Shown one piece after another: positions 16,501 to 54,308 of a stretch of 64,000 nt of DNA. Positions within the stretch are counted from its first letter, which is position 1, and each line of letters starts with the position of its first letter. A model generated the notes under the pieces. The model did no database searches. It worked only from the letters and a program-made list of their open reading frames with translations, and was not told where the DNA came from. The DNA comes from a candidate division WOR-3 bacterium (GTDB lineage: Bacteria > Hydrothermota > 32-111). The stretch lies in contig JBDRZU010000001.1 of assembly GCA_039804105.1 (NCBI GenBank), positions 1,295,985 through 1,359,984 on the forward strand, read 5' to 3'. The translations under genes and the position numbers were made by a program.

Positions 16501-16619
16501 CATTCGAAAACAAAAACAGTTTCACTTTTGATTTGAAAAATTTTTCAAATGGTGTATATTTTGTGGTGTTTGAAAACGAAAAAATCTTTTTTAAAGATAA
16601 GATATTAATCTTAAAATGA
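13509..16619 (+). CDS. peptidase C25 (gingipain/PorU family) with T9SS C-terminal sorting domain
   Basis: The 1036-aa product has a signal peptide and the C25 N-terminal pattern (YLLLGGDRAIIPVRR...SDLYYSNLDGNFNFDGD...VGRILFD). A clan-CD His-Gly/Cys dyad context is present (NHNGHGSF ... YSIGCWVGAF). The C-terminus (NGVYFVVFENEKIFFKDKILILK) is a Por-secretion CTD. Confidence 0.7.
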   Translation: MNKKILFIFLLFLYILIYSEKLEINFQKENDLREISILKVMENKFNVNLPSYIIFFKDKSIKLQNVEFENLSEIKDYKLVNFFQQPLSIRKVEHEKLFKGELKEYFQYSPSNNSIKIFPYFIKDGKIFSYEKAIISYSKGFPFKEKENSLYDYLIITSIKYDTVFSRLKEWKIKKGYKTKLSFIESILPHYSGVDSAEKIRNYIIDEYNSNRFKYLLLGGDRAIIPVRRLYAMNCNADYYPDEDSIPSDLYYSNLDGNFNFDGDNIWGEIEDSSDLIPEVIVGRILFDTIYYGPSPIISRIIDYDRVKNIEHLSRGVFLGMVLWDDPMTSGGVAKDMIDNDIIPQDFHLLKFYEDLGHTGKADILDSLDMGYNIVNHNGHGSFKGVWVDYKTAITRGDATTLTNGSKTGLFYSIGCWVGAFDREDTTYILHSITENFQDSPTGGFISLITNSRYGWGAPGYPGYGVSEVLDYRFFQILFQESEYKRPAEILNQVKSEIEPFSYDENLYRWHIYQLNYFGDPELPIFTQNPNNLNVFFKKNTDFIEIFIRDQNDYPVNNVLVCFSKDTILRRGITDGNGYISFLTNGINDSDYIYFVASKVNYKTVYDSLVLKNVGTKYVSIFSDSFYAGANNYLKIKNFDLTPHNIKLVSKFLNDELILQGSSTDSIIYVPLSSGEIIDTLYLYIDNVLEDTLFLKIYKLKFSVENLYFSNSNFNLKIKKEKSPVVENAKFRVVLQGSYNLLDTIFFENMDSIIQKTFFCGVPTGENYLKFSFYIYKNDTLLAQKTDYLNNGEYSFYDDFIGDLSKWEQYTSNWIITKNQNLHPGNETGYFNNMSDTITSKEFYIYPQTSCSIYIYAKLPVLEFYNSQPIFDVDGIFINLLKNDTIKILDFISSGGALTKDSSLVVKGWKVYNMKVDSVEKAKLQFVFRSDSVIIDSGVFISYVKVKPKFFYSETTGIIRTDTNVIHKDKLTYYFKGLKGVWKVKVFSIDGRIIKNFTFENKNSFTFDLKNFSNGVYFVVFENEKIFFKDKILILK

Positions 16620-26991: not shown

Positions 26992-28973
26992 AAAAGTTTA
27001 AAATAGTTTCCAAATTTTCACCTTCAGATGAGCAAAAAAAAGCGATAGACAAACTTGTTGAAGGTGTTTTGAATGGTAAAAAATATCAGGTTTTACTTGG
27101 AATAACAGGTTCTGGAAAGACATTCACAATAGCAAATGTTATTGAGAGGTTAAACAAACCAACTTTGATAATCTCACACAACAAAACACTTGCAGCACAA
27201 CTTTATGGTGAATTGAAAACTCTCTTTCCTGAAAACAGTGTTGAATATTTTATCTCTTATTATGATTATTATCAACCCGAAGCATATCTTCCCGATAGAG
27301 ATATTTATATAGAAAAAGAGGTTGATATTAATGAGTACATTGATAAATTAAGATTAAGAGCAACTGTTTCTTTATATGAAAGACGTGATGTAATAATTGT
27401 TGCATCTGTATCCTCCATATACACCCTTGGATCACCTTCAGATTACTATGATCAAATTTTTTCTATAAGAAGAGGTGATTTTTATGATCTTGATAGATTG
27501 ATAGATAAACTCATAACGATGCAATACCAGAGAAACGATATAGATTTTTCAAGAGGTAGATTCAGAGTGCTTGGAAACACGGTTGATATTTTTCCATCAC
27601 ATCTTGATATTCCAGTAAAGATAATTTTTGATGATCAAAAAATAGATGAAATATACACATTCGATAGTTTAAACAATTCAAAGATTGAAGAACTTGAGAT
27701 TTTTTCTTTCTTTCCTGCAAAACATTTTGTGACATCAGATGAAAGGATAAAAAGGGCAGTTGTTTCGATAAGAAAAGAATTGAAAGAAAGAGAAAAGGAA
27801 TTGAAAGAAGCGGGTAAAATACTTGAAGCAACAAGGTTAGTGTCAAGAACAAACTATGATCTTGAACTTTTGAAAGAGGTTGGCTATTGTCCAGGTATTG
27901 AAAATTACTCAAGACATATCGATGGAAGAAAAGAAGGAGAAAGGCCTTATACTCTTATAGATTATTTCGGAGAAGATTTTTTGACTGTTATCGATGAATC
28001 ACATGTGACGATTCCGCAGATAAGGGGGATGTATAATGGAGATAGAGCAAGAAAAATCAACCTTATAGAATACGGTTTCAGATTGAAATCCGCGCTCGAT
28101 AACAGACCTCTAAAACTTGAAGAATTTGAAAGAATAACCGGATCTATAATCTGTATGTCAGCAACACCCGATGAGTATGAGATAAACAAATCGAATGGGG
28201 TTGTTGAACTTGTTATAAGACCAACAGGGCTTGTTGATCCTGAAGTTATAATTAAAAGTTCAAAAAACCAGGTAGAGGATCTTATAGATAATATAAAAGA
28301 GGTTGTTGAAAGAAATGAGAGAGTTCTGGTAACAACATTGACAAAAAAGATGGCTGAATCACTTGCAAAATATCTTGAAGAGAAAGGTATAAGGGTAAAA
28401 TATATGCATTCTGAGATAGATTCGATTGAAAGAGTTAGTATAATAAGAGGTTTAAGGTTGAAAGATTTCGATGTACTTGTAGGAATAAATCTTTTAAGAG
28501 AGGGCCTCGATTTACCAGAGGTCTCACTTGTAGCAATACTTGATGCTGATAAAGAGGGTTTTTTAAGATCTGAAACTTCCTTGATACAAACGATAGGAAG
28601 AGCATCAAGAAATGTTAACGGTAAAGTTATACTTTATGCTGATAGATTAACAGAAAGTATGAAAAAGGCGGTTGAGATAACTAATAGGAGAAGAGAAAAG
28701 CAGATACTTTACAACAAAGAACACAATATAACTCCAAAAACGATATCAAAAGAGGTAGAGGATATACTTGTTATCACAGATATAGCGTCATCTTTTACAA
28801 AAGAAATTGAAAATCAGATTGATGAGGATTATAAACAATTATCAACTGTGGAGAAGATAGATCTTATTGAAAAACTGACTCAAAGGATGCACAAATTCGC
28901 TGCTGAACTTGAATTTGAAAAAGCAGCAAAATTAAGGGATAAAATAAAAGAGATAAAAAAAAGTATCGATTAA
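26988..28973 (+). CDS. uvrB: excinuclease ABC subunit B
   Basis: The ATG at 26988 overlaps the upstream stop in an ATGA arrangement. The product has Walker A (GITGSGKTFTIANV), helicase motifs and a C-terminal UVR domain (EFEKAAKLRDKIKEIKK). Confidence 0.92.
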   Translation: MKKFKIVSKFSPSDEQKKAIDKLVEGVLNGKKYQVLLGITGSGKTFTIANVIERLNKPTLIISHNKTLAAQLYGELKTLFPENSVEYFISYYDYYQPEAYLPDRDIYIEKEVDINEYIDKLRLRATVSLYERRDVIIVASVSSIYTLGSPSDYYDQIFSIRRGDFYDLDRLIDKLITMQYQRNDIDFSRGRFRVLGNTVDIFPSHLDIPVKIIFDDQKIDEIYTFDSLNNSKIEELEIFSFFPAKHFVTSDERIKRAVVSIRKELKEREKELKEAGKILEATRLVSRTNYDLELLKEVGYCPGIENYSRHIDGRKEGERPYTLIDYFGEDFLTVIDESHVTIPQIRGMYNGDRARKINLIEYGFRLKSALDNRPLKLEEFERITGSIICMSATPDEYEINKSNGVVELVIRPTGLVDPEVIIKSSKNQVEDLIDNIKEVVERNERVLVTTLTKKMAESLAKYLEEKGIRVKYMHSEIDSIERVSIIRGLRLKDFDVLVGINLLREGLDLPEVSLVAILDADKEGFLRSETSLIQTIGRASRNVNGKVILYADRLTESMKKAVEITNRRREKQILYNKEHNITPKTISKEVEDILVITDIASSFTKEIENQIDEDYKQLSTVEKIDLIEKLTQRMHKFAAELEFEKAAKLRDKIKEIKKSID

Positions 28974-29980
28974 CGATCTTTGTTTGTTATAAAATTCAGA
29001 AATCTAATAACTCCACTTACGAGAATATTGTCAACACTTTCTCCGACACAAGGGAAAAAGCACCTATCACATTTTGAAAGTTTTTTTATATTGTATTCGT
29101 AAATGTTTTTATCTTTCAATTCTGTAAATCCATCAGAAAAAATATTTCCGTAACTTTTCATATCTTCAATAAAGCGAGGTTCACAGGGGTTTATCGTTCC
29201 ATCGTTTTCTATCTGAATTGAAATTTTTGCTTTATTACAGATATAAGGTGAATTATCTCTCATGATTTTCAATGCTTTTATAGAATTGTTAACAGGATAA
29301 CCTGTTTTCTTATAGAATATTATTCTATTAAAAACCTCATACCTTTCTTTTTTATCAAGTATTATATTTTCGTTGTAATCCGAAAATATATTTGAGGGAA
29401 AAAATTCTACAACTATTCCATACTTTTTTGCAAACCGTAACACATCTAAAGTATCATCCTTATTGATTCTGTTAATATGTGACCAGATTTTTAATCTTAC
29501 ATTTTTTTGATTTTTGAAAAGTTCAATTCCTTCGACAATTTTTTCAAAAAGTTTTGGAGTTCTTCTTGTTTTGTTATGTTTTTCTCCAGTTGATTCTAAA
29601 GAAATTATTATTATATCAATGTTGTCTTTAATATCATCATATCTTTCTTTTAAAAGATATCCTGAGGTGCACATGCTTGTTTTGTATCCAATATTTTTTG
29701 CGGTTTTGAGAAAATAACCGAGGTCTTTTACAAGTAAAGGTTCTCCACCCCATAAAACATAGGTTGAAAATCCCATTTCCCAACCATTTTTCAAAATCTC
29801 ACTTATTTTTTCTTTAGAAATAATAATTTCTTTCGGATCAGAATTTTTCCAGAAATCACAGAATTCGCATCTGCAATTGCAGGATAATGTTGGTTTATGA
29901 TAAAGAATAAAAGGTCTTTTCTTTATGATAGAACTTATCGTTTTTATATAATATTTTATTCCTATATTTTGATCAAACAT
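28970..29980 (-). CDS. radical SAM enzyme with C-terminal SPASM/twitch-like Cys-rich domain (unknown substrate)
   Basis: The 336-aa product has CNCRCEFC (CxxxCxxC) at residues ~33-40 and the SAM-binding motif GGEPLL. C-terminal extra cysteines are present (NPCEP ... CDRCFFPC). It converges on uvrB with a 4-nt overlap. Confidence 0.6.
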   Translation of the reverse strand: MFDQNIGIKYYIKTISSIIKKRPFILYHKPTLSCNCRCEFCDFWKNSDPKEIIISKEKISEILKNGWEMGFSTYVLWGGEPLLVKDLGYFLKTAKNIGYKTSMCTSGYLLKERYDDIKDNIDIIIISLESTGEKHNKTRRTPKLFEKIVEGIELFKNQKNVRLKIWSHINRINKDDTLDVLRFAKKYGIVVEFFPSNIFSDYNENIILDKKERYEVFNRIIFYKKTGYPVNNSIKALKIMRDNSPYICNKAKISIQIENDGTINPCEPRFIEDMKSYGNIFSDGFTELKDKNIYEYNIKKLSKCDRCFFPCVGESVDNILVSGVIRFLNFITNKDR

Positions 29981-30060
29981 ATATTGATTATATTTGTTTG
30001 AAGAAAGTTTATCAATAGTTGAACACTTGATTTTTGTTAAGGCAGGTTTATTATAAAATT

Positions 30061-32226
30061 ATGAAAACAAAAATTTTATTTTTTATTATTCTTGTTATCT
30101 TTATAAAGTCTTTTGCGGAAATAAGGATTCTTGTTGATAAGAACGATTTTGATCTTCTGAAAAAAGATTTGAAATCTATCGATATAATAGGATTTGAAAA
30201 GGATAAAAATTATCTTCTTAATCTTACAGATGAAGATTTAAAAATAGTTAACAGTTTGAATTTAAAGTATAAAATCTATGAACCTAAAAGTTACAAAATC
30301 GATTATAAAAGTTTAGCAGGATATTTTTCCTATATAGATTCTTTAGTTTTAAAATTCCAAAACATAGTAAAACTTGAAACTCTTGGTTTCACTTTCAACA
30401 ACAATCCTCTTGTGATCTTAAAAATCAATGGAATAGATGCTTCCAACTACTCAGGACAGAACACTTTTCTGTTGATGGCTTTACATCATGCAAGAGAATG
30501 GCAAACAACAGTTACAGCAATATTTTTTGCAGAATCTTTACTTGCTTCTTATGGAAAGGATAGTTTGATAACGGAACTTATAGATAAAAATTTTATAATA
30601 ATATTTCCTATAGTTAACCCCGATGGATACTATTATTCACACGATGATCCTTCAGGTGATAATTACTGGAGAAAGAACAGAACATATAGAAATGGTTATT
30701 ATGGAGTTGATCTGAATAGAAACTATGGGGGAGCATGTAATCGAATAATTCAGAGTGATTGGGGTTATCCATCAGGTATAACACATAACCCTTCTGATCT
30801 TTATACATACTGTGGACCCTATCCATCGAGTGAAATTGAGGTCAGATGTGTTGAGGATATTGTAAAAAACTATAATGTGAAAATTTCTTTGTCACTTCAC
30901 TCCTATGGAGAAGATATTCTTTATCCATGGACTTCCGTTTACAACTTTACTCTCGATGAACATATAATAACAGATTTTGCTTACAGGATAGCATCCAGAA
31001 TGAAAAAAAATAGTGGAGAACCTTATGATACTTTAAGGTCTGCTGCTTTATATGCAACAACAGGTGATACTGATGATTGGATCTATGGGTTTTCAAAATT
31101 TGTTAAAGGTAAAACAACGATTCCTTTTACTGTTGAAATGGATAACACTTTTCAGCCACCCGCATCAACCCTTGATATTTTATGCAGAAATGTTTTCCCT
31201 GGTTTTTTGGAAGGATTAATTTTAACTGACAGTGTTGAGGAAAAAACCGAAGAGATACCTTTAAAACCTAAAGTCGAAATCGTTTCGGATTCCCTTTTTT
31301 GGACACTTCAAAATGGTGAATTTTCAGATTTTTATAGAGTAAAAATATATTCAGGAATGGAAAAATTAATTGATAGTTTAAACGATCCTGATCTTTATAA
31401 CTTGATAAACATAAATATCGATTCGTCAGTATACTATTCTCCAAAATACTCTTTCCATCCAAAAAATCTTAACAGCTCGTTTTCGATAATAGAGGGCAAA
31501 TATAAAAAACAATATTTCACAAACGATACATTTTATATGATGTTAAGATATGACCTTGAAAAGGATTATGATGTGCTGCTTGTAGAATATTCAACAGATG
31601 GGTTCGAGTATCACCCGATAGATACAAATTTTTACAAGTTTACTGGAACGAATCTGAACTGGAACCTTTTGAAAATTCCTTTTAAAGGGGATACAAACTA
31701 TATATTTTTAAGAATCAGAACACTCTTTGATCCATTCACTTTAAACAGTGGTGTCTGGATTGACAATATTGGTTATCTGACCTCATTTAAAAGTGATTCG
31801 ATATTTAAAGATTCTATTGTTGACACAACGATGTTGATTGAGATCCCAACAGTTGTTCAGACGCATAAGAATTTTTTTGAAGTTATTCCCCATAAAAATA
31901 ATTTCGGTTTTACAGTTTCTTCAGATTATATAGAATATTATTTTCCTCTATCTTTACCACCGATTTTTCTTGATAGTTTAAAAGTTGAGGATTACAGTAT
32001 CGAATTTGATTTTAAAGAAAAACAACTAATTTTAAAATCTCTGCTTACAAAGAGAAAAGATCTATTGTTGAAAATATACGATCTGAGTGGAAAAAGGATT
32101 TACTTTGAAAAATTTTCTTTTGAAAAAGAAAAGAAGATCGATTTAAAATTTTTGAAGAGTGGAAGATATTTCTTGCTTTTTGAAGGCAAAGACAGAAAAA
32201 AATATTCGGTTTTGATTTTAAAATGA
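30061..32226 (+). CDS. M14 family zinc carboxypeptidase with T9SS C-terminal sorting domain
   Basis: The product has a signal peptide (MKTKILFFIILVIF), the M14 Zn-binding motif HHAREWQT, and a C-terminal Por-type CTD (SGRYFLLFEGKDRKKYSVLILK). Confidence 0.65.
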   Translation: MKTKILFFIILVIFIKSFAEIRILVDKNDFDLLKKDLKSIDIIGFEKDKNYLLNLTDEDLKIVNSLNLKYKIYEPKSYKIDYKSLAGYFSYIDSLVLKFQNIVKLETLGFTFNNNPLVILKINGIDASNYSGQNTFLLMALHHAREWQTTVTAIFFAESLLASYGKDSLITELIDKNFIIIFPIVNPDGYYYSHDDPSGDNYWRKNRTYRNGYYGVDLNRNYGGACNRIIQSDWGYPSGITHNPSDLYTYCGPYPSSEIEVRCVEDIVKNYNVKISLSLHSYGEDILYPWTSVYNFTLDEHIITDFAYRIASRMKKNSGEPYDTLRSAALYATTGDTDDWIYGFSKFVKGKTTIPFTVEMDNTFQPPASTLDILCRNVFPGFLEGLILTDSVEEKTEEIPLKPKVEIVSDSLFWTLQNGEFSDFYRVKIYSGMEKLIDSLNDPDLYNLININIDSSVYYSPKYSFHPKNLNSSFSIIEGKYKKQYFTNDTFYMMLRYDLEKDYDVLLVEYSTDGFEYHPIDTNFYKFTGTNLNWNLLKIPFKGDTNYIFLRIRTLFDPFTLNSGVWIDNIGYLTSFKSDSIFKDSIVDTTMLIEIPTVVQTHKNFFEVIPHKNNFGFTVSSDYIEYYFPLSLPPIFLDSLKVEDYSIEFDFKEKQLILKSLLTKRKDLLLKIYDLSGKRIYFEKFSFEKEKKIDLKFLKSGRYFLLFEGKDRKKYSVLILK

Positions 32227-33113
32227 AAGAGGAAGTTCTTGAATTTCTTGAATATCTGAAAAGCAATAAAGGATATTCTGAAAATACCATAAAGTCTTAT
32301 GAAGATGATCTTGATCAATTCATTTATTTTCTAAAGGAAAATCAAATAAACGATTTTAAATCGGTAAAAAGGAACGATATAAGAAGTTTCATAACTTTTC
32401 TTATCGAATCAAAACTTTCAAAACGGTCCATCACAAGAAAAATATCGACACTAAAAACATTTTTCAAATTTTTGAAACATAAAGAGATAATAGAAAATGA
32501 TCCAATGGCTTTCTATAAAGGGCTAAAGTCTGAAAAAAAATTGCCGCAGACACTTTCTGTTGCTATTGTTTCAAAATTTCTGGATTCATTTAAAGATGAT
32601 GATTTTCTGGAGTTAAGGGATCACCTTATTTTTGAAATCCTTTACGGCTGTGGCACAAGATCGAATGAACTTATAAACATTGAAGATAAAGATATTGACC
32701 TTGAAAATAGGATAATAAGAATAGAGAAGGGGAAAGGGGATAAAGAAAGAATAGTTCCGTTTAACAATAAAATAAAAGAGTTGATCATAAAATATATACC
32801 TTTAAGGGATAAAATCAGAAGACAAGAGTGTAAAACACTTTTGATTTCAAGAAATGGGAAAAAACTTGATAATAGTATAATCAGGAAAATTGTAAAAAAA
32901 AGAATCAAAAATTTTGCTGAAATATCGAACATTTCTCCACACACTTTAAGACATTCTTTTGCCACACATCTTTTAAATGGTGGAGCTGATATCAGGTTTG
33001 TTCAGGAACTTCTTGGGCATTCTTCGATAGGAACTACACAAATATATACGCATACATCAGTTGAAAGATTGATAGATGTTTACAACGATTGTTTTAAAAG
33101 AAATGATCAATAA
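32223..33113 (+). CDS. xerD: tyrosine recombinase XerD/XerC family
   Basis: The 296-aa product has the catalytic-domain motifs RDHLIFEILYGCGTRSNEL...HTLRHSFATHLL...LLGHSSIGTTQIYTH. It overlaps the stop of the upstream M14 gene by 4 nt. Confidence 0.8.
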   Translation: MKEEVLEFLEYLKSNKGYSENTIKSYEDDLDQFIYFLKENQINDFKSVKRNDIRSFITFLIESKLSKRSITRKISTLKTFFKFLKHKEIIENDPMAFYKGLKSEKKLPQTLSVAIVSKFLDSFKDDDFLELRDHLIFEILYGCGTRSNELINIEDKDIDLENRIIRIEKGKGDKERIVPFNNKIKELIIKYIPLRDKIRRQECKTLLISRNGKKLDNSIIRKIVKKRIKNFAEISNISPHTLRHSFATHLLNGGADIRFVQELLGHSSIGTTQIYTHTSVERLIDVYNDCFKRNDQ

Positions 33114-46814: not shown

Positions 46815-47329
46815 AATAAAACTCCTTTTAAACTTTTCATTTTATACTCTTCAACTCTCTTACTTTTATTAATCTTTTGAAAAACATCCTTCACTTTTAG
46901 ATTAAACTTTGGCATCAAAAAATCAGGATCAATGTCCATCAAAAGTTTTATTATAAAATATCTATCCAAAATACTTTTGTGAGGTATTGTTAACTCCTCA
47001 CTATCAATTATTATATCATTATAGAACAATATATCAATATCAATTATTCTCGGTCCCTTTTTTATTTTTGAATCTCTTCTTCCTATAAGGTATTCTATCC
47101 TTTTTACAACCCTTAACAGTTCTTCTGGTGAAAAATCGGTTGAAATTTTTAGTATTATGTTTAAAAAATCTTCCTGGTTTTCATAATCAACGGCTTCAGT
47201 GTTATATAATTTGGAAAAACCTGTTATTGTTATGTTGTTAAGTTTAATAAGTTTTATAGCATCTCTGATATTTTTTTCTCTATCACCTATATTTGACCCA
47301 AGACATAGAAAAATCATATCTTTTTGCAT
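46811..47329 (-). CDS. folK: 2-amino-4-hydroxy-6-hydroxymethyldihydropteridine pyrophosphokinase
   Basis: The 172-aa product has LGSNIGDREKNI...GPRIIDIDILF...TIPH, the HPPK motifs. Confidence 0.88.
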   Translation of the reverse strand: MQKDMIFLCLGSNIGDREKNIRDAIKLIKLNNITITGFSKLYNTEAVDYENQEDFLNIILKISTDFSPEELLRVVKRIEYLIGRRDSKIKKGPRIIDIDILFYNDIIIDSEELTIPHKSILDRYFIIKLLMDIDPDFLMPKFNLKVKDVFQKINKSKRVEEYKMKSLKGVLF

Positions 47330-47640
47330 TTTTCCATCTCCACATAAGAACAGTATTTCATTCTATAAGGTTTGTTTTTTTTAACGATCAACCTGAAAGA
47401 ACTTTTATCTTTGAAAAATTTTTTCAACTCTTTCTCAAGAAATTCGAGCATTTCTTCAATAAGTGAAAATTTTTTATTTTTTAACAGGGTTTCAACAGTA
47501 CTGTAAACTTCAAAATAATCTATGAATTCTTTCTCTTCATATTCTAACAGAATATCGACAAGATTTTTTTTCTTTTTCTCAACTTCATAAACCCCAAGAA
47601 AAACGGGGAAATTTTTAATATAAAGTTTAACCTTATACAT
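47314..47640 (-). CDS. folB: dihydroneopterin aldolase (divergent)
   Basis: The 108-aa product has a pattern VKLYIKNFPVFLGVYEVEKK...VDILLEYE ... LIEEMLEFLEKEL ... RLIVKKNKP that aligns to FolB, including the catalytic Glu and Lys positions. It overlaps folK by 16 nt. Confidence 0.55.
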   Translation of the reverse strand: MYKVKLYIKNFPVFLGVYEVEKKKKNLVDILLEYEEKEFIDYFEVYSTVETLLKNKKFSLIEEMLEFLEKELKKFFKDKSSFRLIVKKNKPYRMKYCSYVEMEKCKKI

Positions 47641-49180
47641 ATTTACCTTCTATGATACCTATTGGAAGAATCATCTCTTCCATTGATATACCGCCGTGTT
47701 GAAAGGTATTGTAATATTCTTTTTTGTATTGGTTTAATTTTGTTGAATAAACAAAGTATCCGTTTCCAAAAGTGATATACCATTTATCGTTTGGTTTCTG
47801 AACAGGTAATCCGAATTCATCGGGTTTATCGATCACAAGCAGATCTTTGCTTTGAGGGGAGATCGATGAACCAAATTTATATTTTAAATTGATTGAAACA
47901 TCTTTGCCGGTATTTAAAACGATAGGATCCTTTGCAACTATTGAACCATGATCTGAAGTGATGAAAATTGTGAATCCGTTGTCAACGCTTTTTTCTAAGA
48001 GTTCAAGGATTCCAGAAGTTTTTATCCATATACCCATCAAAAATAGAAGAGAACTCTCATCGGGAAGCATATCTTTTAGTATGTTTGATTCACTTCTTAT
48101 ATGTGTAAAGATGTCCATAATGTTTATCACAAGAATATTTAGAGTGTTGTTTTTTAAATTTGAAAAATTTGAAATATATTTTGAAAGGTTTTCGTTTGTC
48201 GAAACTTTTGAGTAATGAACATTGTCAAAACCATTCTTTTTTGCGAGGGATTTTAAAAACTCCTCCTCGTATTGGTTTTGGGATAGAGTATCCTCAAACT
48301 CCCATCTTTCTGGAAAGATCTTATAAATTTCAACTGGAAGAAAACCACTGAAAATGGAATTTCTGCTGAATGGTGTTGCTGTTGGAATGATTGAAAAATA
48401 ATGATCGTTTACGATTCTGAAATATTCTGAAAGTGTTGACTCAAGAATAAGGTATTGATCGTATCTCATACAATCTATAAGAAGGAACAGAATTTTTTTG
48501 TTCTGTTTTAATACTGGAAAAACTTTATGCTCGAACAACCTGTGTGAAAAAGTTAAACTTTTATCTTTTAAAAAATTTGGATAGTTTTTACTTATAAATT
48601 TAGCAAAAACTTTGTTCATATTCTCTTTCGTTTGTTCATGTAAAGATAAAATCTCCTTTTTTAAAAATTCGTTTAAAACGATGTTCATCGAAGAAGAGAT
48701 GCGATGGAGTTCGTAAAATGATTCCAAAGAGAGTTCTCCGTTTAAATAAATTTCAACTTTTTTTAAAAAGTTTGAGTATCTTTCTCCTATACTGTCAGAA
48801 ATTATTTTTTTATTTTCGAGTATCCTTTTAATCGTTGTTAACAGTTGCATAGCGTTGATCGGTTTTATCAAATAATCGTTTATTTTTAATGATATCGCAT
48901 TTTTTATTATATCTTTATCATCAGCTTTTGTAACCATTATTACAGGAATGTTTGAAGAGTATTCCTTTAAAAGAGATAATGTTTCTATCCCATCAAGTCC
49001 AGGCATATACTGATCAAGGATTATCAAATCGAATGTTTCGTTTTTTACTCTTTCAAGTCCATCCTGTCCACTGGATGATGGTATCACCTCATAACCCTCA
49101 TTTTCAAGAAATTTGGAAAGGGATTTGAGATTGTCGATCTGATCATCTATCCATAAAATTCTTTTTTTCATCTTTATCAA
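47633..49180 (-). CDS. response regulator with C-terminal PglZ (alkaline-phosphatase superfamily) effector domain; PorX-like
   Basis: The 515-aa product has an N-terminal REC domain (ILWIDDQ...DLIILDQYMPGLDG). The PglZ motifs are LLIDCMRYDQ, IPTATPFSRNSIFSG and HGGISMEEMILP. This domain order and size match T9SS regulator PorX (~518 aa). Confidence 0.7.
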   Translation of the reverse strand: MIKMKKRILWIDDQIDNLKSLSKFLENEGYEVIPSSSGQDGLERVKNETFDLIILDQYMPGLDGIETLSLLKEYSSNIPVIMVTKADDKDIIKNAISLKINDYLIKPINAMQLLTTIKRILENKKIISDSIGERYSNFLKKVEIYLNGELSLESFYELHRISSSMNIVLNEFLKKEILSLHEQTKENMNKVFAKFISKNYPNFLKDKSLTFSHRLFEHKVFPVLKQNKKILFLLIDCMRYDQYLILESTLSEYFRIVNDHYFSIIPTATPFSRNSIFSGFLPVEIYKIFPERWEFEDTLSQNQYEEEFLKSLAKKNGFDNVHYSKVSTNENLSKYISNFSNLKNNTLNILVINIMDIFTHIRSESNILKDMLPDESSLLFLMGIWIKTSGILELLEKSVDNGFTIFITSDHGSIVAKDPIVLNTGKDVSINLKYKFGSSISPQSKDLLVIDKPDEFGLPVQKPNDKWYITFGNGYFVYSTKLNQYKKEYYNTFQHGGISMEEMILPIGIIEGKYV

Positions 49181-50354
49181 GGATTATTAAAAAAGTTGTT
49201 CCATCGTTAACCACGGTTCTCTCAAGTATCAGTTTTCCTTTATGGAAATCTTCAATGATTTTTTTTGCGAGAGGCAAACCAAGTCCCCAGCCAAACTTTT
49301 TGGTCGTGAATCCAATTTTAAAAATGTTTTCAATGTTTTTCCTTTCGATACCAACACCATTATCCGATATTCTGATAAGAACTCTGTTATTTTCATTTTT
49401 TGTTTCTATTTTTATTTTCCCGTCAGAGATGTTTTTTAAGGAATCTATGCTGTTTTTGATCAAATTCTCCAAAGCCCATTTGAAAAGTTCTTTATCAACC
49501 ATGATATGTTCGTCACTGTCCAGTTGTGTTTCAATCGAAATTTTGTTTTTTCCAATTGTTGGAACTCTTTTTTTGAAATAGGATGAAACATCATCTATGA
49601 TTTCTTTTAAACTTGTCACCTCAAAAGCAGGATTTGAGCCGATTTTGTTAAACCTGTTTGATACGGTTTCAAGACGGGAACAGTCCTCTTCAATTCCATC
49701 AACAATATTTTTATCGATAGTTTGTTTTTCTTTCAGCATATATATCCATGTTTTCAATGATGTTAGGGGAGTTCCGATCTGGTGAGCTGTTTCTTTTGCC
49801 ATTCCTGCCCATATTATGTTGTCCTCGCTCTTTCTATATAATAGAAAAGCATAAATTCCTATCAGCAGAAAAATAGAGGAAACTATTACCTGAAAAAATG
49901 GAGCAAACTGAAGTTTTTTGTATAGTGGATCTTCTCCCATATGGATGACCGCAAGCACTTTTGAATTGTATATAAGTTTTATAGGTCTTTTCTCACCATC
50001 AAGTTTTTCGACTATTTTTTTTAAATCAGCAAGGTATTTAGGGTTATTTTCAATCTCAAAAACAGTATCAAGATAACCAACATTTCTCCAGGAAATCGGA
50101 TAGCCGGATGTGTCAGTTAAAACTATTGGAAAGGAAATATTTTTTATGATTTCCTCAAAAATTATTTCTTCGATTTTCGAGGTTTGATTCTCAGTAATTC
50201 CTGTTGCGTATCTTGCAAAGATTCTTGATTGCATCAAGGATTTTTCTTCAAGTTTAAACACTATATCTTGAATGAATAAAAAAGAGGCTAAAGAAACGAC
50301 TATCAGGGCAACAAAAAAATATGATTTGAAGAAGAATGGGTTTTTGTTCATCAC
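49143..50354 (-). CDS. sensor histidine kinase (PorY-like partner of the REC-PglZ regulator)
   Basis: The 403-aa product has two TM helices flanking a periplasmic loop, an H-box (ETAHQIGTPLTSL) and an HATPase_c G-box (ISDNGVGI). It overlaps the downstream regulator gene by 38 nt and abuts the upstream GGDEF gene. Confidence 0.75.
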   Translation of the reverse strand: MMNKNPFFFKSYFFVALIVVSLASFLFIQDIVFKLEEKSLMQSRIFARYATGITENQTSKIEEIIFEEIIKNISFPIVLTDTSGYPISWRNVGYLDTVFEIENNPKYLADLKKIVEKLDGEKRPIKLIYNSKVLAVIHMGEDPLYKKLQFAPFFQVIVSSIFLLIGIYAFLLYRKSEDNIIWAGMAKETAHQIGTPLTSLKTWIYMLKEKQTIDKNIVDGIEEDCSRLETVSNRFNKIGSNPAFEVTSLKEIIDDVSSYFKKRVPTIGKNKISIETQLDSDEHIMVDKELFKWALENLIKNSIDSLKNISDGKIKIETKNENNRVLIRISDNGVGIERKNIENIFKIGFTTKKFGWGLGLPLAKKIIEDFHKGKLILERTVVNDGTTFLIILDKDEKKNFMDR

Positions 50355-52376
50355 CTACCCATTGATTCTATCTCTTCCTTTTCTTTTAGCGTCGTACAAA
50401 GCATCATCAACCCATTTGAGTAATGTTTCAATACTATCACCATCATCGGGATAAGTTACAGTTCCAACAGATACAGTGATCTTGATGCCGTTTGTGAAGT
50501 TTGTTCTTTTAACAAGTTTGTTTATCTTTTCCGCTATCGAATGTGTAAACTGTTTACCTGTTCCAGGTAAAATTATGAAAAACTCATCTCCACCATATCT
50601 TGTAACGATATCTCCTTTTCTAACAGTTTTAGATAAAAGTTGAGCGAGTTCTCTTATGATCATATCTCCAACCATATGACCATAGTTATCGTTTATCTCT
50701 TTGAAATAGTCAATATCAAGCATAAGGATAGAAAGAGGAATGGAAAGTTTTTTTGATCGTTCGAGTTCATCTTTAAGTTTTTCGATGAAGAATCGATAGT
50801 TATACATATCTGTCAGTGGATCAGTGTTTGCAATTCTTTTGGTTTCTTCATATTTGAATGTGTTGTCTATTGAAACCGATAGGTGTGAAGCAAGGATTGA
50901 GATTATTCTAAAATCGTTTTCGTCAAGAGAATTGATGCCTTCACTTTCTATATCTAATATACCGATCATACCCGAAGAAAGTTGTAATGGAACTGCGATT
51001 TCGGACATTGATATATCAAGTCGTCCAACGAATCTTGGATCTGAACGTGTATCCTTTACATGAACTGGAGTTTTATGCTCAGCGACCCATCCAACGATAC
51101 CTTCACCCATCTTCAACATCTCGTTGATCCGTTCTATATATTTTTCATTGTATCCAGAGAAAGCTTTTATCTCGAGTTCATTGAACTCGTTGTATAGGAT
51201 TATAGATGTATTATAATGAGGAAAATTCTCTTTTATTGATTTTACAAAATGGTTCAAAAGATCGTCGAGTTGTATATGTGAGTTCATCAAAGCGGAGATT
51301 GTGGATACCTTTTCCAAATTTTTAATTAGTTGTTCCATCCTTGAAAACAGTTTTGCATTTTCGAGTGAAATTGCTGCAGTTTGAGCGAATGATTCTAAAA
51401 TTTCTATCGATTCGAGAAGGTTAACATATTTGTTTATGGGTTTATCAACAGTGATGATTCCTAAAATTTTGTTTTCCTTTGAATAGAGTGGAATTATGAG
51501 TATATCTTCAGGATGCCAGTTTACATATTCATCAGGTCGCTCCTCAGGTATCACATAAGCGATCTCATTCAAAGTTTTGTCTATCTGATCAAGGTTCATC
51601 TCTTTATGGTTTATATAGTATGATTTTGATATTCTGAATTTATCCTGCATCAAATTTTTTATGGTTGAGAAAGGGACCTTTTGTTTTTTCAATTTTTCGA
51701 AAACTTTTTCATTCAAACCGTTCTGAGCGACTCTTTCCATCGAATCTTCTTTTTCGTTGTAAAGGGAGACAAGAACAACCGAAAAACCAAGAGAGGAACT
51801 TATTGCCTTTGTGATTATGTTGAGGATCTTTTCAAAGTCAAAAGTTGATTGCAAAAGGAGAGTCAACTGTTGTAAAGTGTACAACTTTTTGTTGACTGTT
51901 GCTATCTTCTCTTCTATATCTTTTTCTGAATTCAATTTTTGTAATAGATATATCTTTGTTAAACCGTTTTTTATCGATGGTAAAATCTCAAGCATTTCAA
52001 GATTTTTTCTTTCATCATATATTTCACCTTCATTCTGAAAAATCAAAAATAATTCTTCTTGTTTATCAGTTAGAAATATATAATGATTTCCACTTTGTAA
52101 AACTACTTCATCTCCAATCCTTATATCATATAAAAGAGAATCTATCCTGTTGATCTGTTCTTTTTCTTCAACTGAGATCCTTTTAAAGTTGTACAGTTCT
52201 TTTGTTTCCGCAAAGGCCTTATCTTTTTTGAGTGTTGAATAGAAATAAAAACCGTTCTGAGTTTTTAAACTTAAAAAGAGATTTTTTATAAAATACTCTT
52301 TTAAAAAGAAATTTATTGCATCAATGAAATCTTTTTCATTTTCTGAACTCAAGAATTTACTTACAACAGGTTTCAT
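50355..52376 (-). CDS. GAF-GAF-GGDEF diguanylate cyclase with intact I-site
   Basis: The 673-aa product has two GAF-like regions followed by a GGDEF domain (RKGD-x5-GGDEF; RYGGDEFFIIL). Its stop directly abuts the HK start. Confidence 0.75.
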   Translation of the reverse strand: MKPVVSKFLSSENEKDFIDAINFFLKEYFIKNLFLSLKTQNGFYFYSTLKKDKAFAETKELYNFKRISVEEKEQINRIDSLLYDIRIGDEVVLQSGNHYIFLTDKQEELFLIFQNEGEIYDERKNLEMLEILPSIKNGLTKIYLLQKLNSEKDIEEKIATVNKKLYTLQQLTLLLQSTFDFEKILNIITKAISSSLGFSVVLVSLYNEKEDSMERVAQNGLNEKVFEKLKKQKVPFSTIKNLMQDKFRISKSYYINHKEMNLDQIDKTLNEIAYVIPEERPDEYVNWHPEDILIIPLYSKENKILGIITVDKPINKYVNLLESIEILESFAQTAAISLENAKLFSRMEQLIKNLEKVSTISALMNSHIQLDDLLNHFVKSIKENFPHYNTSIILYNEFNELEIKAFSGYNEKYIERINEMLKMGEGIVGWVAEHKTPVHVKDTRSDPRFVGRLDISMSEIAVPLQLSSGMIGILDIESEGINSLDENDFRIISILASHLSVSIDNTFKYEETKRIANTDPLTDMYNYRFFIEKLKDELERSKKLSIPLSILMLDIDYFKEINDNYGHMVGDMIIRELAQLLSKTVRKGDIVTRYGGDEFFIILPGTGKQFTHSIAEKINKLVKRTNFTNGIKITVSVGTVTYPDDGDSIETLLKWVDDALYDAKRKGRDRING

Positions 52377-52426
52377 ATAAAATCATTATAATATTTTATA
52401 AGATAAATGTCAACAAAATGAAAATT

Positions 52427-53098
52427 CTAATCTATTATCAAACCATCTTTGATATGGATTATTCTATCCGTCTTTCTGGCAACATCGGGTTCATGAGTAA
52501 CTATTATTATGGTTTTCCCTTTCTGATTTAGTTCCCTTAAAATTTTCATTATCTCATCTGACATTTTGGAATCAAGATTACCTGTTGGTTCATCAGCAAG
52601 GATGAACTGGGGATCGTTCGCAAGAGATCTTGCAATTGAAACTCTCTGTCTTTCTCCACCTGACATCTCAGATGGTAGATGGTGTATTCTGTGTGATAAT
52701 CCGACAAGTTCAAGAAGTTCTTTTGCTCTTTTGATACGTTCATTTCTTTTGACTTTGGCATAGATCATTGGCATTTCGACATTCCTTAAAGCGGTTGTCT
52801 TAGGAAGGAGATTATAACTTTGAAAAACAAAACCAATATATTTGTTTCTGATCTCTGCAAGTTTATCATCATCATATTTAGATGTGTCGTTTCCATTCAA
52901 AAGATATGTTCCACCAGTTGGTTTATCCAAACATCCAAGAATGTGCATCAAAGTAGATTTTCCTGATCCAGATGGTCCCATTATTGATAAAAATTCTCCT
53001 TCAGAAATCGTTAGGTTGATATCTTTTAAAGCTTCAACATAACCACCTTTAAAAGGATAATATTTTTTTATATGAAACATTTCTATTATATTACTCAT
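52427..53098 (-). CDS. ABC transporter ATP-binding protein (MacB/LolD family)
   Basis: The 223-aa product has Walker A (GPSGSGKSTLMHILG), the signature LSGGERQRVSIAR and Walker B (ILADEPTGNLD). Confidence 0.85.
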   Translation of the reverse strand: MSNIIEMFHIKKYYPFKGGYVEALKDINLTISEGEFLSIMGPSGSGKSTLMHILGCLDKPTGGTYLLNGNDTSKYDDDKLAEIRNKYIGFVFQSYNLLPKTTALRNVEMPMIYAKVKRNERIKRAKELLELVGLSHRIHHLPSEMSGGERQRVSIARSLANDPQFILADEPTGNLDSKMSDEIMKILRELNQKGKTIIIVTHEPDVARKTDRIIHIKDGLIID

Positions 53099-54308
53099 AT
53101 CTCAAACACTCCACTGGATCAAGTGATGCGGCCTTTCTTGATGGAAGGATTCCGAAGAATAGTCCTGCTGAAAAAGAGAAGGTAAAACCTAAAAGAACAG
53201 ACCATAAAGGAATCGCAAAAGGCAAATTTGTGAATTTTGAGATCGTAAACGAGATTAAAAAACCGGTAATTATTCCTATGATTCCTCCAGTAAGAGAAAT
53301 TGTGATCGATTCAAACAAAAATTGTAAAAGGATCTCTCGGTTTTTTGCACCAATTGATTTTCTTATTCCAATCTCTCTGGTTCTTTCGGAAACCGAGACG
53401 AGCATTATATTCATTATACCTATTCCACCAACTATCAAAGATAAAGTTCCAACAGCGATCATAACAAAAAAAATTGCTGTCGTAAGAGATTTCCACTGAC
53501 TGATCAATGCATCCTGAGTGTTTATATGGAAGTTATCGGGATCTTTAGGTTTTAACGAATGTGACAATCTCATGATCCATCTCAACTCTTCAATGGTTTC
53601 ATCAGGATTAAAACTTCTCACCATTATCGATATCCTTCTTGACTCATCTCCATAATATTTTATAAGGGTTGTATAAGGAATGTATACCACCTCATCCATC
53701 GATTGCCCAAAGATTGAACCTTTTTCTGTTGTTACCCCTATAACAATATATTTTCTACCATCAACCGTTAAAAGTTTTCCTATTGGATTTTCATTTTTAA
53801 AAAGGTTTTTTTGAATATCTTTACCTATAACACAAACATTTCTTCTGTATTTGATATCATCGGATGAGATTGGAATACCGATGTCTATCGATATATTCTC
53901 TATCTTAAAAGAATTTTCTGAAATTCCCGATACATTGACTGCTTCCAATCTTTCACCTTTATATTTTACTAGAAACCTTCTTGAAATCGAAATACCTACA
54001 TCCTCTGCTGATCTAATCATCTGTTTAACCATTTTATAATCGTTAAAGTCCACATAATTCCTAAAAGATCTTCTCCAATCGTTTGGACCCATCGAAACCC
54101 ATGGGAATCTTTCAACATAGATAACATTTGAACCAATTGTTGAGAAAACCTGTTGAACTTTCGATTCTAATCCAGCGATTATTGAGACAACTATTATAAC
54201 AGTCATAACACCAATGATTATTCCAAGCGTAGTTAAAAAACTTCTGAGTTTGTTGCTTCTTATAGAGTCCAAACTTACTCTTAAACTTTCCAGAAAGAGT
54301 TCTATCAT
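53091..54308 (-). CDS. ABC transporter permease, FtsX/MacB type
   Basis: The 405-aa product has an N-terminal MacB_PCD region and four C-terminal TM helices with an FtsX-like pattern. It overlaps the ATPase gene by 8 nt. Confidence 0.75.
   Translation of the reverse strand: MIELFLESLRVSLDSIRSNKLRSFLTTLGIIIGVMTVIIVVSIIAGLESKVQQVFSTIGSNVIYVERFPWVSMGPNDWRRSFRNYVDFNDYKMVKQMIRSAEDVGISISRRFLVKYKGERLEAVNVSGISENSFKIENISIDIGIPISSDDIKYRRNVCVIGKDIQKNLFKNENPIGKLLTVDGRKYIVIGVTTEKGSIFGQSMDEVVYIPYTTLIKYYGDESRRISIMVRSFNPDETIEELRWIMRLSHSLKPKDPDNFHINTQDALISQWKSLTTAIFFVMIAVGTLSLIVGGIGIMNIMLVSVSERTREIGIRKSIGAKNREILLQFLFESITISLTGGIIGIITGFLISFTISKFTNLPFAIPLWSVLLGFTFSFSAGLFFGILPSRKAASLDPVECLRYE

What the first reader, a model, noticed from the sequence alone, without database searches (positions are those of the whole stretch)
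47633..52376. PorX/PorY-like two-component system hard-wired to a GAF-GGDEF diguanylate cyclase in one translationally coupled operon
Three consecutive minus-strand genes are fused end to end: a GAF-GAF-GGDEF diguanylate cyclase, a histidine kinase, and a response regulator whose output is a PglZ (alkaline-phosphatase-fold) domain rather than a DNA-binding domain. The junctions have 0-nt spacing and a 38-nt overlap. REC+PglZ at ~515 aa is the architecture of PorX, and a ~400-aa HK matches PorY; PorXY is the orphan two-component system that controls type IX secretion in Porphyromonas. This window also encodes three T9SS-CTD cargo proteins, so a PorXY-type regulator fits biologically. In Porphyromonas, porX and porY are unlinked and no cyclase is associated with them. 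The PorX PglZ domain has been reported to have phosphodiesterase activity on (cyclic) oligonucleotides. An operon that pairs a c-di-GMP synthase carrying an I-site with a PglZ-output regulator would therefore be a self-contained make/sense/degrade nucleotide second-messenger circuit controlling secretion. As far as I know that arrangement has not been described.
Basis: partly seen in the sequence, partly recalled or inferred. Interest (0 to 1): 0.72.

Follow-up and report, generated by a model that had tools for sequence, protein, structure and literature searches.

The report
Diguanylate cyclase operon-linked to PorX/PorY-like system
In one clade of uncultured WOR-3 bacteria, a c-di-GMP-making enzyme is transcribed together with a sensor kinase and a true PorX secretion regulator, which hints that PorX's unexplained nuclease activity belongs to c-di-GMP metabolism but does not prove it.

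Summary
Three tightly packed minus-strand genes encode a GAF-GAF-GGDEF cyclase with intact GGDEF motif and I-site, a two-TM histidine kinase, and a REC-PglZ regulator. The regulator is a true PorX: it passes NCBIfam's PorX equivalog model (514 bits, cutoff 300), aligns full-length with the P. gingivalis PorX structure (E 4e-107), and keeps all 11 catalytic residues.

- **Kinase-PorX linkage:** it is common outside Bacteroidota (15 of 80 loci, at least five named lineages) and absent from every Bacteroidota locus. The unlinked Porphyromonas state looks derived.
- **Cyclase linkage:** it is real but confined to one WOR-3 (Caldifarciminota) clade. I found 12 complete loci and no counter-example, with a conserved near-consensus, probably leaderless promoter in front of the cyclase.
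- **Caveat:** the downstream housekeeping genes (folB to hsp20) are equally syntenic, so conservation alone does not prove functional coupling.
- **"Make/sense/degrade":** this is overstated. Published assays show PorX cleaves pGpG but not c-di-GMP, and no EAL or HD-GYP gene lies nearby.

Core T9SS machinery could not be checked. Only one of three cargo domains passes Pfam's threshold. Verdict: a new variant of a known kind, moderate interest.

The parts
52385..52413 (-). Sigma-70-type promoter TTGACA-17 nt-TATAAT. The -10 box ends 8 nt before the cyclase ATG, so the transcript is probably leaderless.
   Evidence: It is the only 12/12 consensus site on either strand of the 64-kb window. An 11-12/12 site is conserved upstream of the cyclase in 12 of 12 relatives, 6-9 nt from the ATG in 11 of them, whatever gene lies further upstream.
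50355..52376 (-). Soluble diguanylate cyclase, 673 aa: unassigned N-terminal region (~1-160), GAF, GAF, GGDEF.
   Evidence: Pfam GGDEF 157 bits, GAF and GAF_2 with two stretches each; TIGR00254 171 bits. No convincing membrane segment: the only hydropathy hit (residues ~184-205) lies inside the first GAF region. PDB matches to PleD, WspR and DosC cover the GGDEF domain only.
50580..50621 (-). I-site plus active-site motif RKGDIVTRYGGDEF (residues 586-599).
   Evidence: RxxD lies 5 residues before GGDEF. RKGD and GGDEF are invariant in all 8 aligned orthologues; the 14-residue string differs at one intervening position in L084. The DxD...FK..ND..GH..GD metal- and guanine-binding positions are also invariant.
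49143..50351 (-). Sensor histidine kinase, 402 aa: TM 5-35, periplasmic loop of ~110 aa, TM 146-174, H-box His190, HATPase_c. No HAMP domain.
   Evidence: Pfam and NCBIfam; hydropathy and H-box. Orthologues whose sensor domain also matches (E 1e-9 to 1e-22) lie directly upstream of PorX in 15 loci from other FCB lineages. A 3-nt gap separates it from the cyclase stop codon.
47633..49171 (-). PorX orthologue, 512 aa: REC, three-helix linker, PglZ (alkaline-phosphatase-fold) phosphodiesterase domain.
   Evidence: NF052313 T9SS_RR_PorX equivalog 514 bits (cutoff 300), model positions 2-512 of 513. PDB 7PV7 E 3.6e-107 and 8TED E 9e-103, both full length. It overlaps the kinase 3' end by 29 nt.
48830..49159 (-). 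PorX receiver domain with D9, D10, D53 (phospho-acceptor), T81 and K103.
   Evidence: Pfam Response_reg 95 bits. These residues correspond to P. gingivalis D14/D15/D58/T86/K108 and are invariant or nearly invariant in 23 homologues.
47924..48499 (-). PorX PglZ core with D233, T266 (nucleophile), D353, H357, D407 and H408.
   Evidence: Pfam PglZ 51 bits. These residues correspond to P. gingivalis D239/T272/D361/H365/D415/H416 and are all invariant in alignment A1. The pGpG-contacting R276/N306/N358 equivalents (R270, N299, N350) are also invariant.
47314..47640 (-). folB, the first of a run of housekeeping genes (folK, dNK-like kinase, panC and others) that continue the same-strand string. Probably co-transcribed.
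   Evidence: It overlaps PorX by 8 nt. Pfam FolB. No minus-strand terminator between 46800 and 53200. The same downstream order occurs in all in-clade loci.
13509..16619 (+). Context: Peptidase_C25 (gingipain-family) protein with a T9SS type A sorting domain. It is the only cargo candidate above threshold.
   Evidence: Pfam Peptidase_C25 160 bits, Por_Secre_tail 30.2 (cutoff 27). TIGR04183 27.1 (cutoff 23). No PorU equivalog match.
30034..32226 (+). Context: Peptidase_M14 carboxypeptidase with a sub-threshold T9SS sorting domain.
   Evidence: Por_Secre_tail 25.5 bits against a cutoff of 27. In relative L090 an orthologous-type M14 + CTD gene lies directly upstream of the cyclase.
5312..8113 (-). 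Context: lamin-tail-domain protein with a sub-threshold T9SS sorting domain.
   Evidence: Por_Secre_tail 22.8 bits against a cutoff of 27.

Best explanation
The locus carries an ancient kinase-PorX two-component pair that, in one WOR-3 (Caldifarciminota) clade, came to lie behind a clade-specific GAF-GAF-GGDEF diguanylate cyclase gene. All three are expressed from the cyclase's strong, probably leaderless promoter. Shown by sequence: the three proteins have the stated architectures and all catalytic residues, the junctions leave no room for a terminator, and the promoter and gene order are conserved across the clade. Inferred mechanism: a cytoplasmic ligand sensed by the GAF or N-terminal domains switches on c-di-GMP synthesis, with the I-site limiting output. 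An envelope cue sensed by the kinase's periplasmic loop (for PorY in P. gingivalis, the CTD of a T9SS cargo protein) drives phosphotransfer to PorX Asp53. Phospho-PorX then dimerises, which activates its Zn-dependent PglZ phosphodiesterase and its T9SS-regulating interactions. By analogy with P. gingivalis PorX, that phosphodiesterase acts on linear dinucleotides such as pGpG, not on c-di-GMP itself. Co-expression would therefore pair the enzyme that makes c-di-GMP with the enzyme that clears its breakdown product pGpG. An EAL or HD-GYP enzyme encoded elsewhere would have to perform the intermediate step. The outcome would be a link between c-di-GMP turnover and secretion control.
For: PorX identity: NF052313 at 514 bits against a cutoff of 300; full-length match to 7PV7 and 8TED; 11 of 11 catalytic residues conserved. 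Kinase as cognate partner: an orthologue with a matching sensor domain lies directly upstream of PorX in 15 loci from Zixibacteria, Ignavibacteriales, Latescibacteria, Eisenbacteria, a distant WOR-3 genome and unclassified MAGs. Its topology matches the published PorY periplasmic region A35-R149. Cyclase competence: GGDEF and the RxxD I-site are invariant. Co-inheritance: 12 complete loci and 1 partial locus spanning 48-100% PorX identity all carry the triad. Four different upstream contexts were seen, and no breakpoint falls between the cyclase and the kinase. The three proteins have diverged in parallel at 49-88% identity. The cyclase family has 21 clusters and then a score cliff, matching about 20 PorX and 19 kinase in-clade clusters. 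Co-transcription: a unique 12/12 promoter is conserved in 12 of 12 relatives, the gaps are at most 13 nt or the genes overlap, and there is no terminator. Biochemical plausibility: PorX crystallised with pGpG and cleaves it, and its authors considered c-di-GMP metabolism as its context.
Against: The downstream housekeeping block (folB to hsp20) is conserved just as well and packed just as tightly, so neither synteny nor co-transcription separates functional from neutral linkage. The cyclase-PorX association arose once: none of 80 PorX loci from other lineages has an adjacent GGDEF gene, the nearest being 3.9 kb away in L010. No EAL, HD-GYP or PilZ motif and no c-di-GMP riboswitch was found in the window. 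The cyclase has no REC domain, so the kinase has no evident way to control it. PorX also cleaves cyclic oligoadenylates and other dinucleotides, so pGpG is not established as its natural substrate. Core T9SS genes were not found in the window.
Confidence: 0.5

Rival explanations
1. Neutral synteny. The cyclase is an independent c-di-GMP signalling gene that happens to head a long polycistronic string in a compact genome. Its adjacency to kinase-PorX has no more functional meaning than PorX's adjacency to folB.
For: The whole block from the cyclase to hsp20 (about 13 genes) is syntenic in all in-clade loci, with overlaps or gaps of a few nucleotides throughout. The association arose in a single evolutionary event and has no independent recurrence among 80 other PorX loci. 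PorX in other phyla also sits among housekeeping genes (serS, tsaE, tsaB).
Against: Four independent upstream rearrangements all stop exactly at the cyclase promoter. The cyclase family exists only where this PorX clade exists, at about 1:1:1. Three signalling genes in a row, one of whose products binds a c-di-GMP breakdown product in a crystal structure, is an unlikely coincidence. The cross-phylum porX-tsaE adjacency, which might also look neutral, turned out to mark a real kinase-substrate pair in P. gingivalis.
Confidence: 0.37
2. In this clade the PorX PglZ domain hydrolyses c-di-GMP itself, so the operon is a complete make/sense/degrade module.
For: The cyclase and the PglZ phosphodiesterase share an operon. 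No EAL or HD-GYP gene was seen in the window or in the flanks of relatives. Schmitz et al. noted that the wide PorX active site could accommodate c-di-GMP.
Against: P. gingivalis PorX did not cleave c-di-GMP or any other cyclic dinucleotide, and c-di-GMP did not bind in crystals. The active-site and pGpG-contact residues of the window protein are the same as in other PorX proteins, with no sign of a clade-specific change in specificity. Only 64 kb of the genome was searched for EAL/HD-GYP, and only by motif.
Confidence: 0.08
3. The GGDEF enzyme makes a different signal (cGAMP or cyclic oligoadenylates, as in Hypr-GGDEF or Cas10-palm-like enzymes), and that signal is the cyclic-oligonucleotide substrate of PorX.
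For: PorX cleaves cA3, cA4 and cA6. There is a weak sub-threshold Pfam match of the GGDEF domain to Cas10-Cmr2_palm2 (21.9 against 27).
Against: The canonical guanine-recognising Asn and Asp (the ...IND...GHxxGD... positions, equivalent to PleD N335/D344; this mapping is from my own knowledge of the family) and a c-di-GMP-type RxxD I-site are present and invariant. The best matches are ordinary c-di-GMP synthases. The Cas10 match reflects the known shared palm fold.
Confidence: 0.03

Closest known systems
PorX of Porphyromonas gingivalis (PDB 7PV7/7PVA/7PVK) and Flavobacterium johnsoniae (8TED, 8P6F)
   Same: Full-length collinear alignment of REC, three-helix linker and PglZ domain. It passes NCBI's PorX equivalog model. 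The receiver pentad, the Thr nucleophile, both Zn sites and the pGpG-contacting Arg and Asn residues are all conserved.
   Different: Identity is only in the mid-30s percent range (33-39% for the Bacteroidota-type PorX homologues found). The source is a non-Bacteroidota phylum (WOR-3/Caldifarciminota). The gene is not an orphan: a kinase is encoded directly upstream. It is followed by folB rather than tsaE/ubK1. No function has been tested.
PorY sensor kinase of P. gingivalis
   Same: Length of about 400 aa, two TM segments flanking a periplasmic region of about 110 aa (published PorY A35-R149; here about 36-145), and an H-box plus HATPase_c core. It is paired with PorX.
   Different: Sequence orthology to PorY could not be tested because no PorY sequence was available. 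porY is unlinked from porX in P. gingivalis. The HisKA match here is below Pfam's threshold (21.6 against 26.9).
serS-HK-porX-tsaE-tsaB locus of Zixibacteria, Ignavibacteriales, Latescibacteria and related FCB lineages
   Same: The same orthologous kinase-PorX pair, on the same strand and immediately adjacent.
   Different: Those loci have no cyclase and are flanked by serS and tsaE/tsaB. In the window's clade both flanks have been replaced, by the cyclase upstream and folB downstream.
GAF-GGDEF diguanylate cyclases (NCBIfam DgcA NF041606; GGDEF domains of PleD, WspR, DosC)
   Same: A canonical GGDEF catalytic domain with an RxxD I-site, preceded by GAF sensor domains.
   Different: It is below the DgcA equivalog cutoff (158 against 370). 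It has an extra N-terminal region of about 160 aa with no family match. Full-length homologues exist only in this WOR-3 clade.
BREX PglZ phosphatases
   Same: They share the PglZ alkaline-phosphatase-fold domain.
   Different: The BREX_PglZ_3 match is 99.6 bits against a cutoff of 250. There is no BREX gene context. This protein has a REC domain and the PorX architecture instead.

Membership tests
PorX (T9SS response regulator, NCBIfam NF052313) | Scores above the curated equivalog cutoff over the full length. | tested here: met
   514 bits against a cutoff of 300; residues 7-512 match model positions 2-512 of 513.
PorX (T9SS response regulator, NCBIfam NF052313) | Receiver domain with the phospho-acceptor Asp and the conserved D-D-T-K residues. 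| tested here: met
   D9, D10, D53, T81 and K103 correspond to P. gingivalis D14, D15, D58, T86 and K108.
PorX (T9SS response regulator, NCBIfam NF052313) | PglZ/alkaline-phosphatase-fold domain with the Thr nucleophile and two Zn sites. | tested here: met
   D233, T266, D353, H357, D407 and H408 correspond to D239, T272, D361, H365, D415 and H416. All are invariant in 23 homologues.
PorX (T9SS response regulator, NCBIfam NF052313) | The host genome encodes a type IX secretion system. | tested here: inconclusive
   One T9SS type A sorting domain is above threshold and two are below. No core machinery was found in the 64-kb window.
PorX (T9SS response regulator, NCBIfam NF052313) | Regulates T9SS genes or the T9SS motor (SigP or PorL interaction); Zn-dependent phosphodiesterase activity on oligonucleotides. 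| not testable with these tools
   This needs biochemistry or genetics.
PorY (sensor kinase partner of PorX) | Inner-membrane kinase with two TM segments around a periplasmic sensor of about 115 aa, plus an H-box and HATPase_c. | tested here: met
   TM 5-35 and 146-174, His190, HATPase_c 65 bits. Published PorY periplasmic region: A35-R149.
PorY (sensor kinase partner of PorX) | Sequence orthology to P. gingivalis PorY (PGN_2001). | not tested
   No PorY sequence or model could be obtained with the tools. No PorY-named family appeared among the best 25 NCBIfam hits.
PorY (sensor kinase partner of PorX) | Cognate phosphodonor of PorX. | tested here: inconclusive
   Supported only by conserved immediate adjacency in 15 out-of-clade loci and all in-clade loci. 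Phosphotransfer was not tested.
Active diguanylate cyclase (GGDEF, PF00990/TIGR00254) | GG[D/E]EF active-site motif and metal/GTP-binding residues. | tested here: met
   GGDEF at residues 595-599. The DxD...FK..ND..GH..GD positions are invariant in 8 orthologues. PF00990 157 bits.
Active diguanylate cyclase (GGDEF, PF00990/TIGR00254) | Allosteric I-site RxxD five residues upstream of GGDEF. | tested here: met
   RKGD at 586-589, invariant in 8 of 8.
Self-contained c-di-GMP make/degrade module | A c-di-GMP-specific phosphodiesterase (EAL or HD-GYP), or a demonstrated c-di-GMP hydrolase, in the module. | tested here: not met
   No EAL or HD-GYP motif in the window or in the flanks of relatives (motif-level test only). 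PorX does not cleave cyclic dinucleotides in vitro.
BREX PglZ | Scores above the BREX PglZ model cutoff and sits in a BREX gene context. | tested here: not met
   NF033449 99.6 bits against a cutoff of 250. The neighbours are an ABC exporter and fol genes.

The most novel reading that the evidence does not exclude
This operon is natural genetic evidence for the physiological role of the PorX PglZ domain. On this reading PorX is the phosphorylation-gated pGpG-clearing (or, in this clade, c-di-GMP-degrading) enzyme of a c-di-GMP circuit that controls type IX secretion. The kinase next to PorX in many FCB phyla would be the ancestral cognate kinase, which would help settle the dispute over whether PorY really signals to PorX.
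Probability: 0.22. Interest if true: 0.7.

Novelty: new variant of a known kind. Interest (0 to 1): 0.45.

Why it matters
PorX is essential for virulence-factor secretion in Porphyromonas gingivalis, yet two basic questions remain open. The natural substrate of its phosphodiesterase domain is unknown, with pGpG/nanoRNA and cyclic oligoadenylates both proposed. Whether PorY is really its kinase is also disputed. This locus bears on both questions.

A clade in which PorX is always co-transcribed with a diguanylate cyclase points towards the c-di-GMP/pGpG branch. It also offers a compact three-gene set that could be reconstituted in vitro.

The wider finding is that an orthologous kinase sits directly beside porX in several non-Bacteroidota phyla. 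This shows PorX is ancestrally part of an ordinary two-component pair and that the orphan state in Bacteroidota is derived. It also makes it straightforward to test whether PorY descends from that kinase. The evidence is genomic context only, from a single evolutionary event in uncultured organisms, so it generates a hypothesis rather than settling one.

Tried and rejected
A full-length sequence match to solved PorX structures at E 1e-107 already answers the question.
- **PorU hypothesis for the Peptidase_C25 + CTD protein:** rejected. Only the sorting-domain model matched, with no PorU equivalog.
- **BREX PglZ membership:** rejected on score and context.
- **c-di-GMP riboswitches or other known RNAs in the window:** none at Rfam gathering thresholds.
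- **EAL, HD-GYP and PilZ genes:** none in the window by motif search. Two 'EAL' motif hits in Flavobacterium loci L063 and L075, about 4 kb from PorX, were not followed up and may be chance.
- **Independent GGDEF-PorX associations in 80 other loci:** none adjacent.
- **Literature on T9SS in WOR-3:** no paper found.
- **PorY orthology:** could not be tested. PorY is not in the PDB, no PorY-named NCBIfam hit appeared, and the kinase homologue list was filled with non-Bacteroidota sequences.
Close relatives had to be fetched one at a time.
- **The metagenome scan for the cyclase** used only two peptide patterns. I therefore repeated the question with a full protein search, which gave the same clade-restricted answer.

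Full report
**Observation**

Pfam assigns the following domains:
- The first protein has GGDEF (157 bits) and two GAF stretches.
- The second has HATPase_c (65 bits) and a sub-threshold HisKA match (21.6 against 26.9).
- The third has Response_reg (95 bits) and PglZ (51 bits).

The stated 0-nt spacing and 38-nt overlap apply to the longest ORFs. Independent gene calls on the source MAG use ATG starts, giving a 402-aa kinase and a 512-aa regulator, a 3-nt gap and a 29-nt overlap.

The same-strand gene string then carries on through folK, a dNK-like kinase, panC, an NTP-transferase, rsfS, argS and others. Tight packing is therefore a property of this whole region, not of the three genes alone.

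**What the parts are**

*The regulator is a true PorX.*
- It scores 514 bits on NCBIfam's curated equivalog model NF052313 (cutoff 300), end to end.
- It aligns over its full length with the crystal-structure sequences of P. gingivalis PorX (7PV7, E 3.6e-107) and F. johnsoniae PorX (8TED, E 9e-103).
- Schmitz et al. 2022 (PMC9757075) define the receiver residues as D14/D15/D58/T86/K108 and the PglZ active site as D239/T272/D361/H365/D415/H416.
- These map to D9/D10/D53/T81/K103 and D233/T266/D353/H357/D407/H408 in the window protein.
- All are invariant or nearly invariant across 23 homologues from several phyla. So are the equivalents of the pGpG-contacting residues R276, N306 and N358.
- Structure prediction was unnecessary given this match.

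*The kinase has PorY-like topology.*
- It has predicted TM segments at residues 5-35 and 146-174, a periplasmic loop of about 110 aa, an H-box at His190 directly after TM2, and no HAMP domain.
- This matches the published periplasmic region of PorY, A35-R149. That region binds the CTD of the T9SS cargo protein PorA (PMC12152298).

*The cyclase looks active.*
- It is soluble.
- The I-site RKGD and the GGDEF motif are invariant in all eight aligned orthologues, as are the metal- and guanine-binding positions.
- Its first ~160 residues match no family and evolve fastest, at 20-83% identity.

**Source**

The window comes from a 266-kb contig of a MAG annotated as candidate division WOR-3 (GCA_039804125.1). 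NCBI now names this phylum Caldifarciminota. GC content is about 30%.

**Is kinase-PorX linkage unusual?**

It is not unusual outside Bacteroidota. I fetched 80 PorX loci from species-representative genomes and searched their ORFs with the window proteins.
- In 15 loci a kinase lies on the same strand just upstream of PorX, adjacent in 14 and 860 nt away in L050.
- That kinase's sensor domain also matches the window kinase (E 1e-9 to 1e-22).
- These loci come from Zixibacteria, Ignavibacteriales, Latescibacteria, Eisenbacteria, a distant WOR-3 genome and unclassified MAGs.
- No locus whose title names a Bacteroidota taxon (about 55 loci) has any kinase adjacent to PorX.

The typical non-Bacteroidota context is serS-kinase-PorX-tsaE-tsaB. 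The literature treats porX and porY as an atypical unlinked pair (PMC10951265). Schmitz et al. even doubt that PorY/PorX operate as a pair. The cross-phylum adjacency indicates that PorX belongs ancestrally to an ordinary two-component operon, and that the orphan state in Bacteroidota is derived. I could not test whether the adjacent kinase is the orthologue of PorY, because no PorY sequence was available.

**Is the cyclase linkage conserved?**

It is conserved, but only within one clade.
- PorX relatives at 85, 72, 57, 55, 52, 52, 49 and 48% identity all show cyclase (668-673 aa)-kinase-PorX-folB.
- A metagenome scan starting from the cyclase added three complete loci and one partial locus.
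- In total I examined 12 complete loci and 1 partial locus, with no counter-example.
- The next PorX relative, at 41% identity, has the outgroup arrangement PorX-tsaE-tsaB.
- The distant WOR-3 genome has clpX-unknown-kinase-PorX with no cyclase.
- The three proteins have diverged in parallel: cyclase 50-88%, kinase 52-86%, PorX 49-85% identity.
- The cyclase family is sharply bounded. It has 21 clusters at 50% identity or more, 20 of them full length and one truncated. The score then drops from 702 to 247 bits, into proteins with other architectures.
- That matches about 20 in-clade PorX clusters and 19 in-clade kinase clusters.
- None of the 80 out-of-clade PorX loci has an adjacent GGDEF gene. 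The nearest is 3.9 kb away in L010. The association therefore reflects one evolutionary event.

**Transcription**

The 50-nt gap upstream of the cyclase contains TTGACA-17 nt-TATAAT. This is the only 12/12 sigma-70 consensus site on either strand of the 64-kb window.
- An 11-12/12 site is present upstream of the cyclase in 12 of 12 relatives. The upstream neighbour varies among a MacB-type ABC exporter, a divergent NYN gene, a divergent C11 peptidase and a same-strand M14 peptidase with a T9SS CTD.
- In 11 of the 12 relatives the -10 box ends 6-9 nt before the ATG. That leaves no room for a Shine-Dalgarno sequence and predicts a leaderless mRNA.
- Other genes in the window have clear GGAGG sites, so the genome uses both modes.
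- No minus-strand terminator-like site lies between 46800 and 53200.

Co-transcription of the cyclase, kinase and PorX is therefore very likely. Read-through into folB and beyond is also likely.

**How far this supports a functional link**

In favour:
- Four independent upstream rearrangements all stop at the cyclase promoter.
- The three families co-occur at about 1:1:1.
- PorX was crystallised with pGpG, the linear product of c-di-GMP, and cleaves it.

Against:
- The housekeeping block downstream is just as syntenic and just as tightly packed, so conservation and co-transcription do not discriminate.
- The association arose once.
- The cyclase has no receiver domain.
[quoted passage not shown] The make/sense/degrade circuit is therefore incomplete without an EAL or HD-GYP enzyme.
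- No EAL or HD-GYP gene is present in the window or in relatives' flanks, although this was only a motif-level test.
- No c-di-GMP riboswitch is present.

I put the probability that the cyclase and PorX are functionally coupled through c-di-GMP/pGpG at roughly one half, and neutral synteny at somewhat over one third.

**T9SS context**

One protein, a Peptidase_C25 at 13509..16619, carries a T9SS type A sorting domain above threshold in both Pfam and TIGRFAM. It does not match a PorU model. Two others, an M14 peptidase and an LTD protein, are sub-threshold. The remaining ORFs I scanned are housekeeping genes, and no core T9SS component was found.

**Novelty and verdict**

- The parts are known kinds: a new PorX member, a PorY-like kinase and a standard GAF-GGDEF cyclase.
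- The arrangement, a diguanylate cyclase heading a PorX/kinase operon, does not appear in the searchable literature. Only Schmitz 2022 links PorX to c-di-GMP at all.
- I classify it as a new variant of a known kind.
- It is a useful, testable lead on the unresolved substrate and partner of PorX. However, it rests on genomic context from a single event in uncultured bacteria.
- Interest: 0.45.

Noticed in passing
L004-L083 and L100 (e.g. L005:9563-10665, L007:9548-10667, L100:2044-3185): tsaE (PF02367, the UbK/YjeE/YdiB family) lies directly downstream of porX in at least 46 of 80 loci, spanning Bacteroidota, Zixibacteria, Ignavibacteriales, Latescibacteria and others, often followed by tsaB. 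A 2026 JBC paper (PMC13241743) used porX-ubK1 adjacency within P. gingivalis to identify PorX as a UbK1 substrate. The adjacency is in fact conserved across phyla, and the window's clade is an exception because folB follows PorX there.
   Followed up: partly
window 52385-52413 (-) and the equivalent sites in L084-L094 and L099: The conserved near-consensus promoter has its -10 box only 6-9 nt from the cyclase ATG, which implies a leaderless mRNA. The gene at 28970..29980 (-) has similar geometry (promoter 30015..29987), whereas other genes have GGAGG ribosome-binding sites.
   Followed up: partly
window ~32000-34500: Cumulative GC skew peaks here, and gene orientation switches from plus (1-33 kb) to minus (33-62 kb), so the genes converge. 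A XerC/D-type tyrosine recombinase gene (32223..33113, Phage_integrase 147 bits) sits at the switch. This looks like the replication terminus region. No dif site was searched for.
   Followed up: no
window 49143-50351 (-) and homologues P0121-P0139 compared with P0140 onward: In-clade kinases (53% identity or more) lack a precomputed HisKA (PF00512) hit, whereas most out-of-clade orthologues (42% or less) have one. The DHp/H-box region therefore diverged in the clade that acquired the cyclase, although His190 is retained.
   Followed up: no
window 51897-52376 (-) (cyclase residues 1-160): The N-terminal region of the cyclase matches no Pfam or NCBIfam family. It is the fastest-evolving part of the protein (20-83% identity among orthologues) but keeps a few invariant residues (for example the I78-D79...L81...Y83-D84 patch). 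Its role as a sensor or interaction domain is unknown.
   Followed up: no
L090:1546-3708: In one relative the gene directly upstream of the cyclase, on the same strand, is a Peptidase_M14 with a T9SS sorting domain. The same type of protein lies 18 kb away in the window (30034..32226).
   Followed up: no
window 52427-56712 (-): A complete MacAB-TolC-like tripartite exporter (OEP, periplasmic adaptor, MacB/FtsX permease, ABC ATPase) lies immediately upstream of the cyclase promoter in the window and its two closest relatives, but not in more distant clade members.
   Followed up: partly
P0246: One cyclase orthologue (87% identity) is deposited as 'candidate division TA06 bacterium 32_111', while the others are labelled WOR-3. 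The phylum labels for this clade are inconsistent across public records.
   Followed up: no
L063:13253-15529 and L075:8583-10781: Two Flavobacterium loci have a 730-760-aa ORF with a DDFGxG-type (EAL-like) motif about 4 kb downstream of porX. This may be a chance motif match and was not checked against a profile.
   Followed up: no
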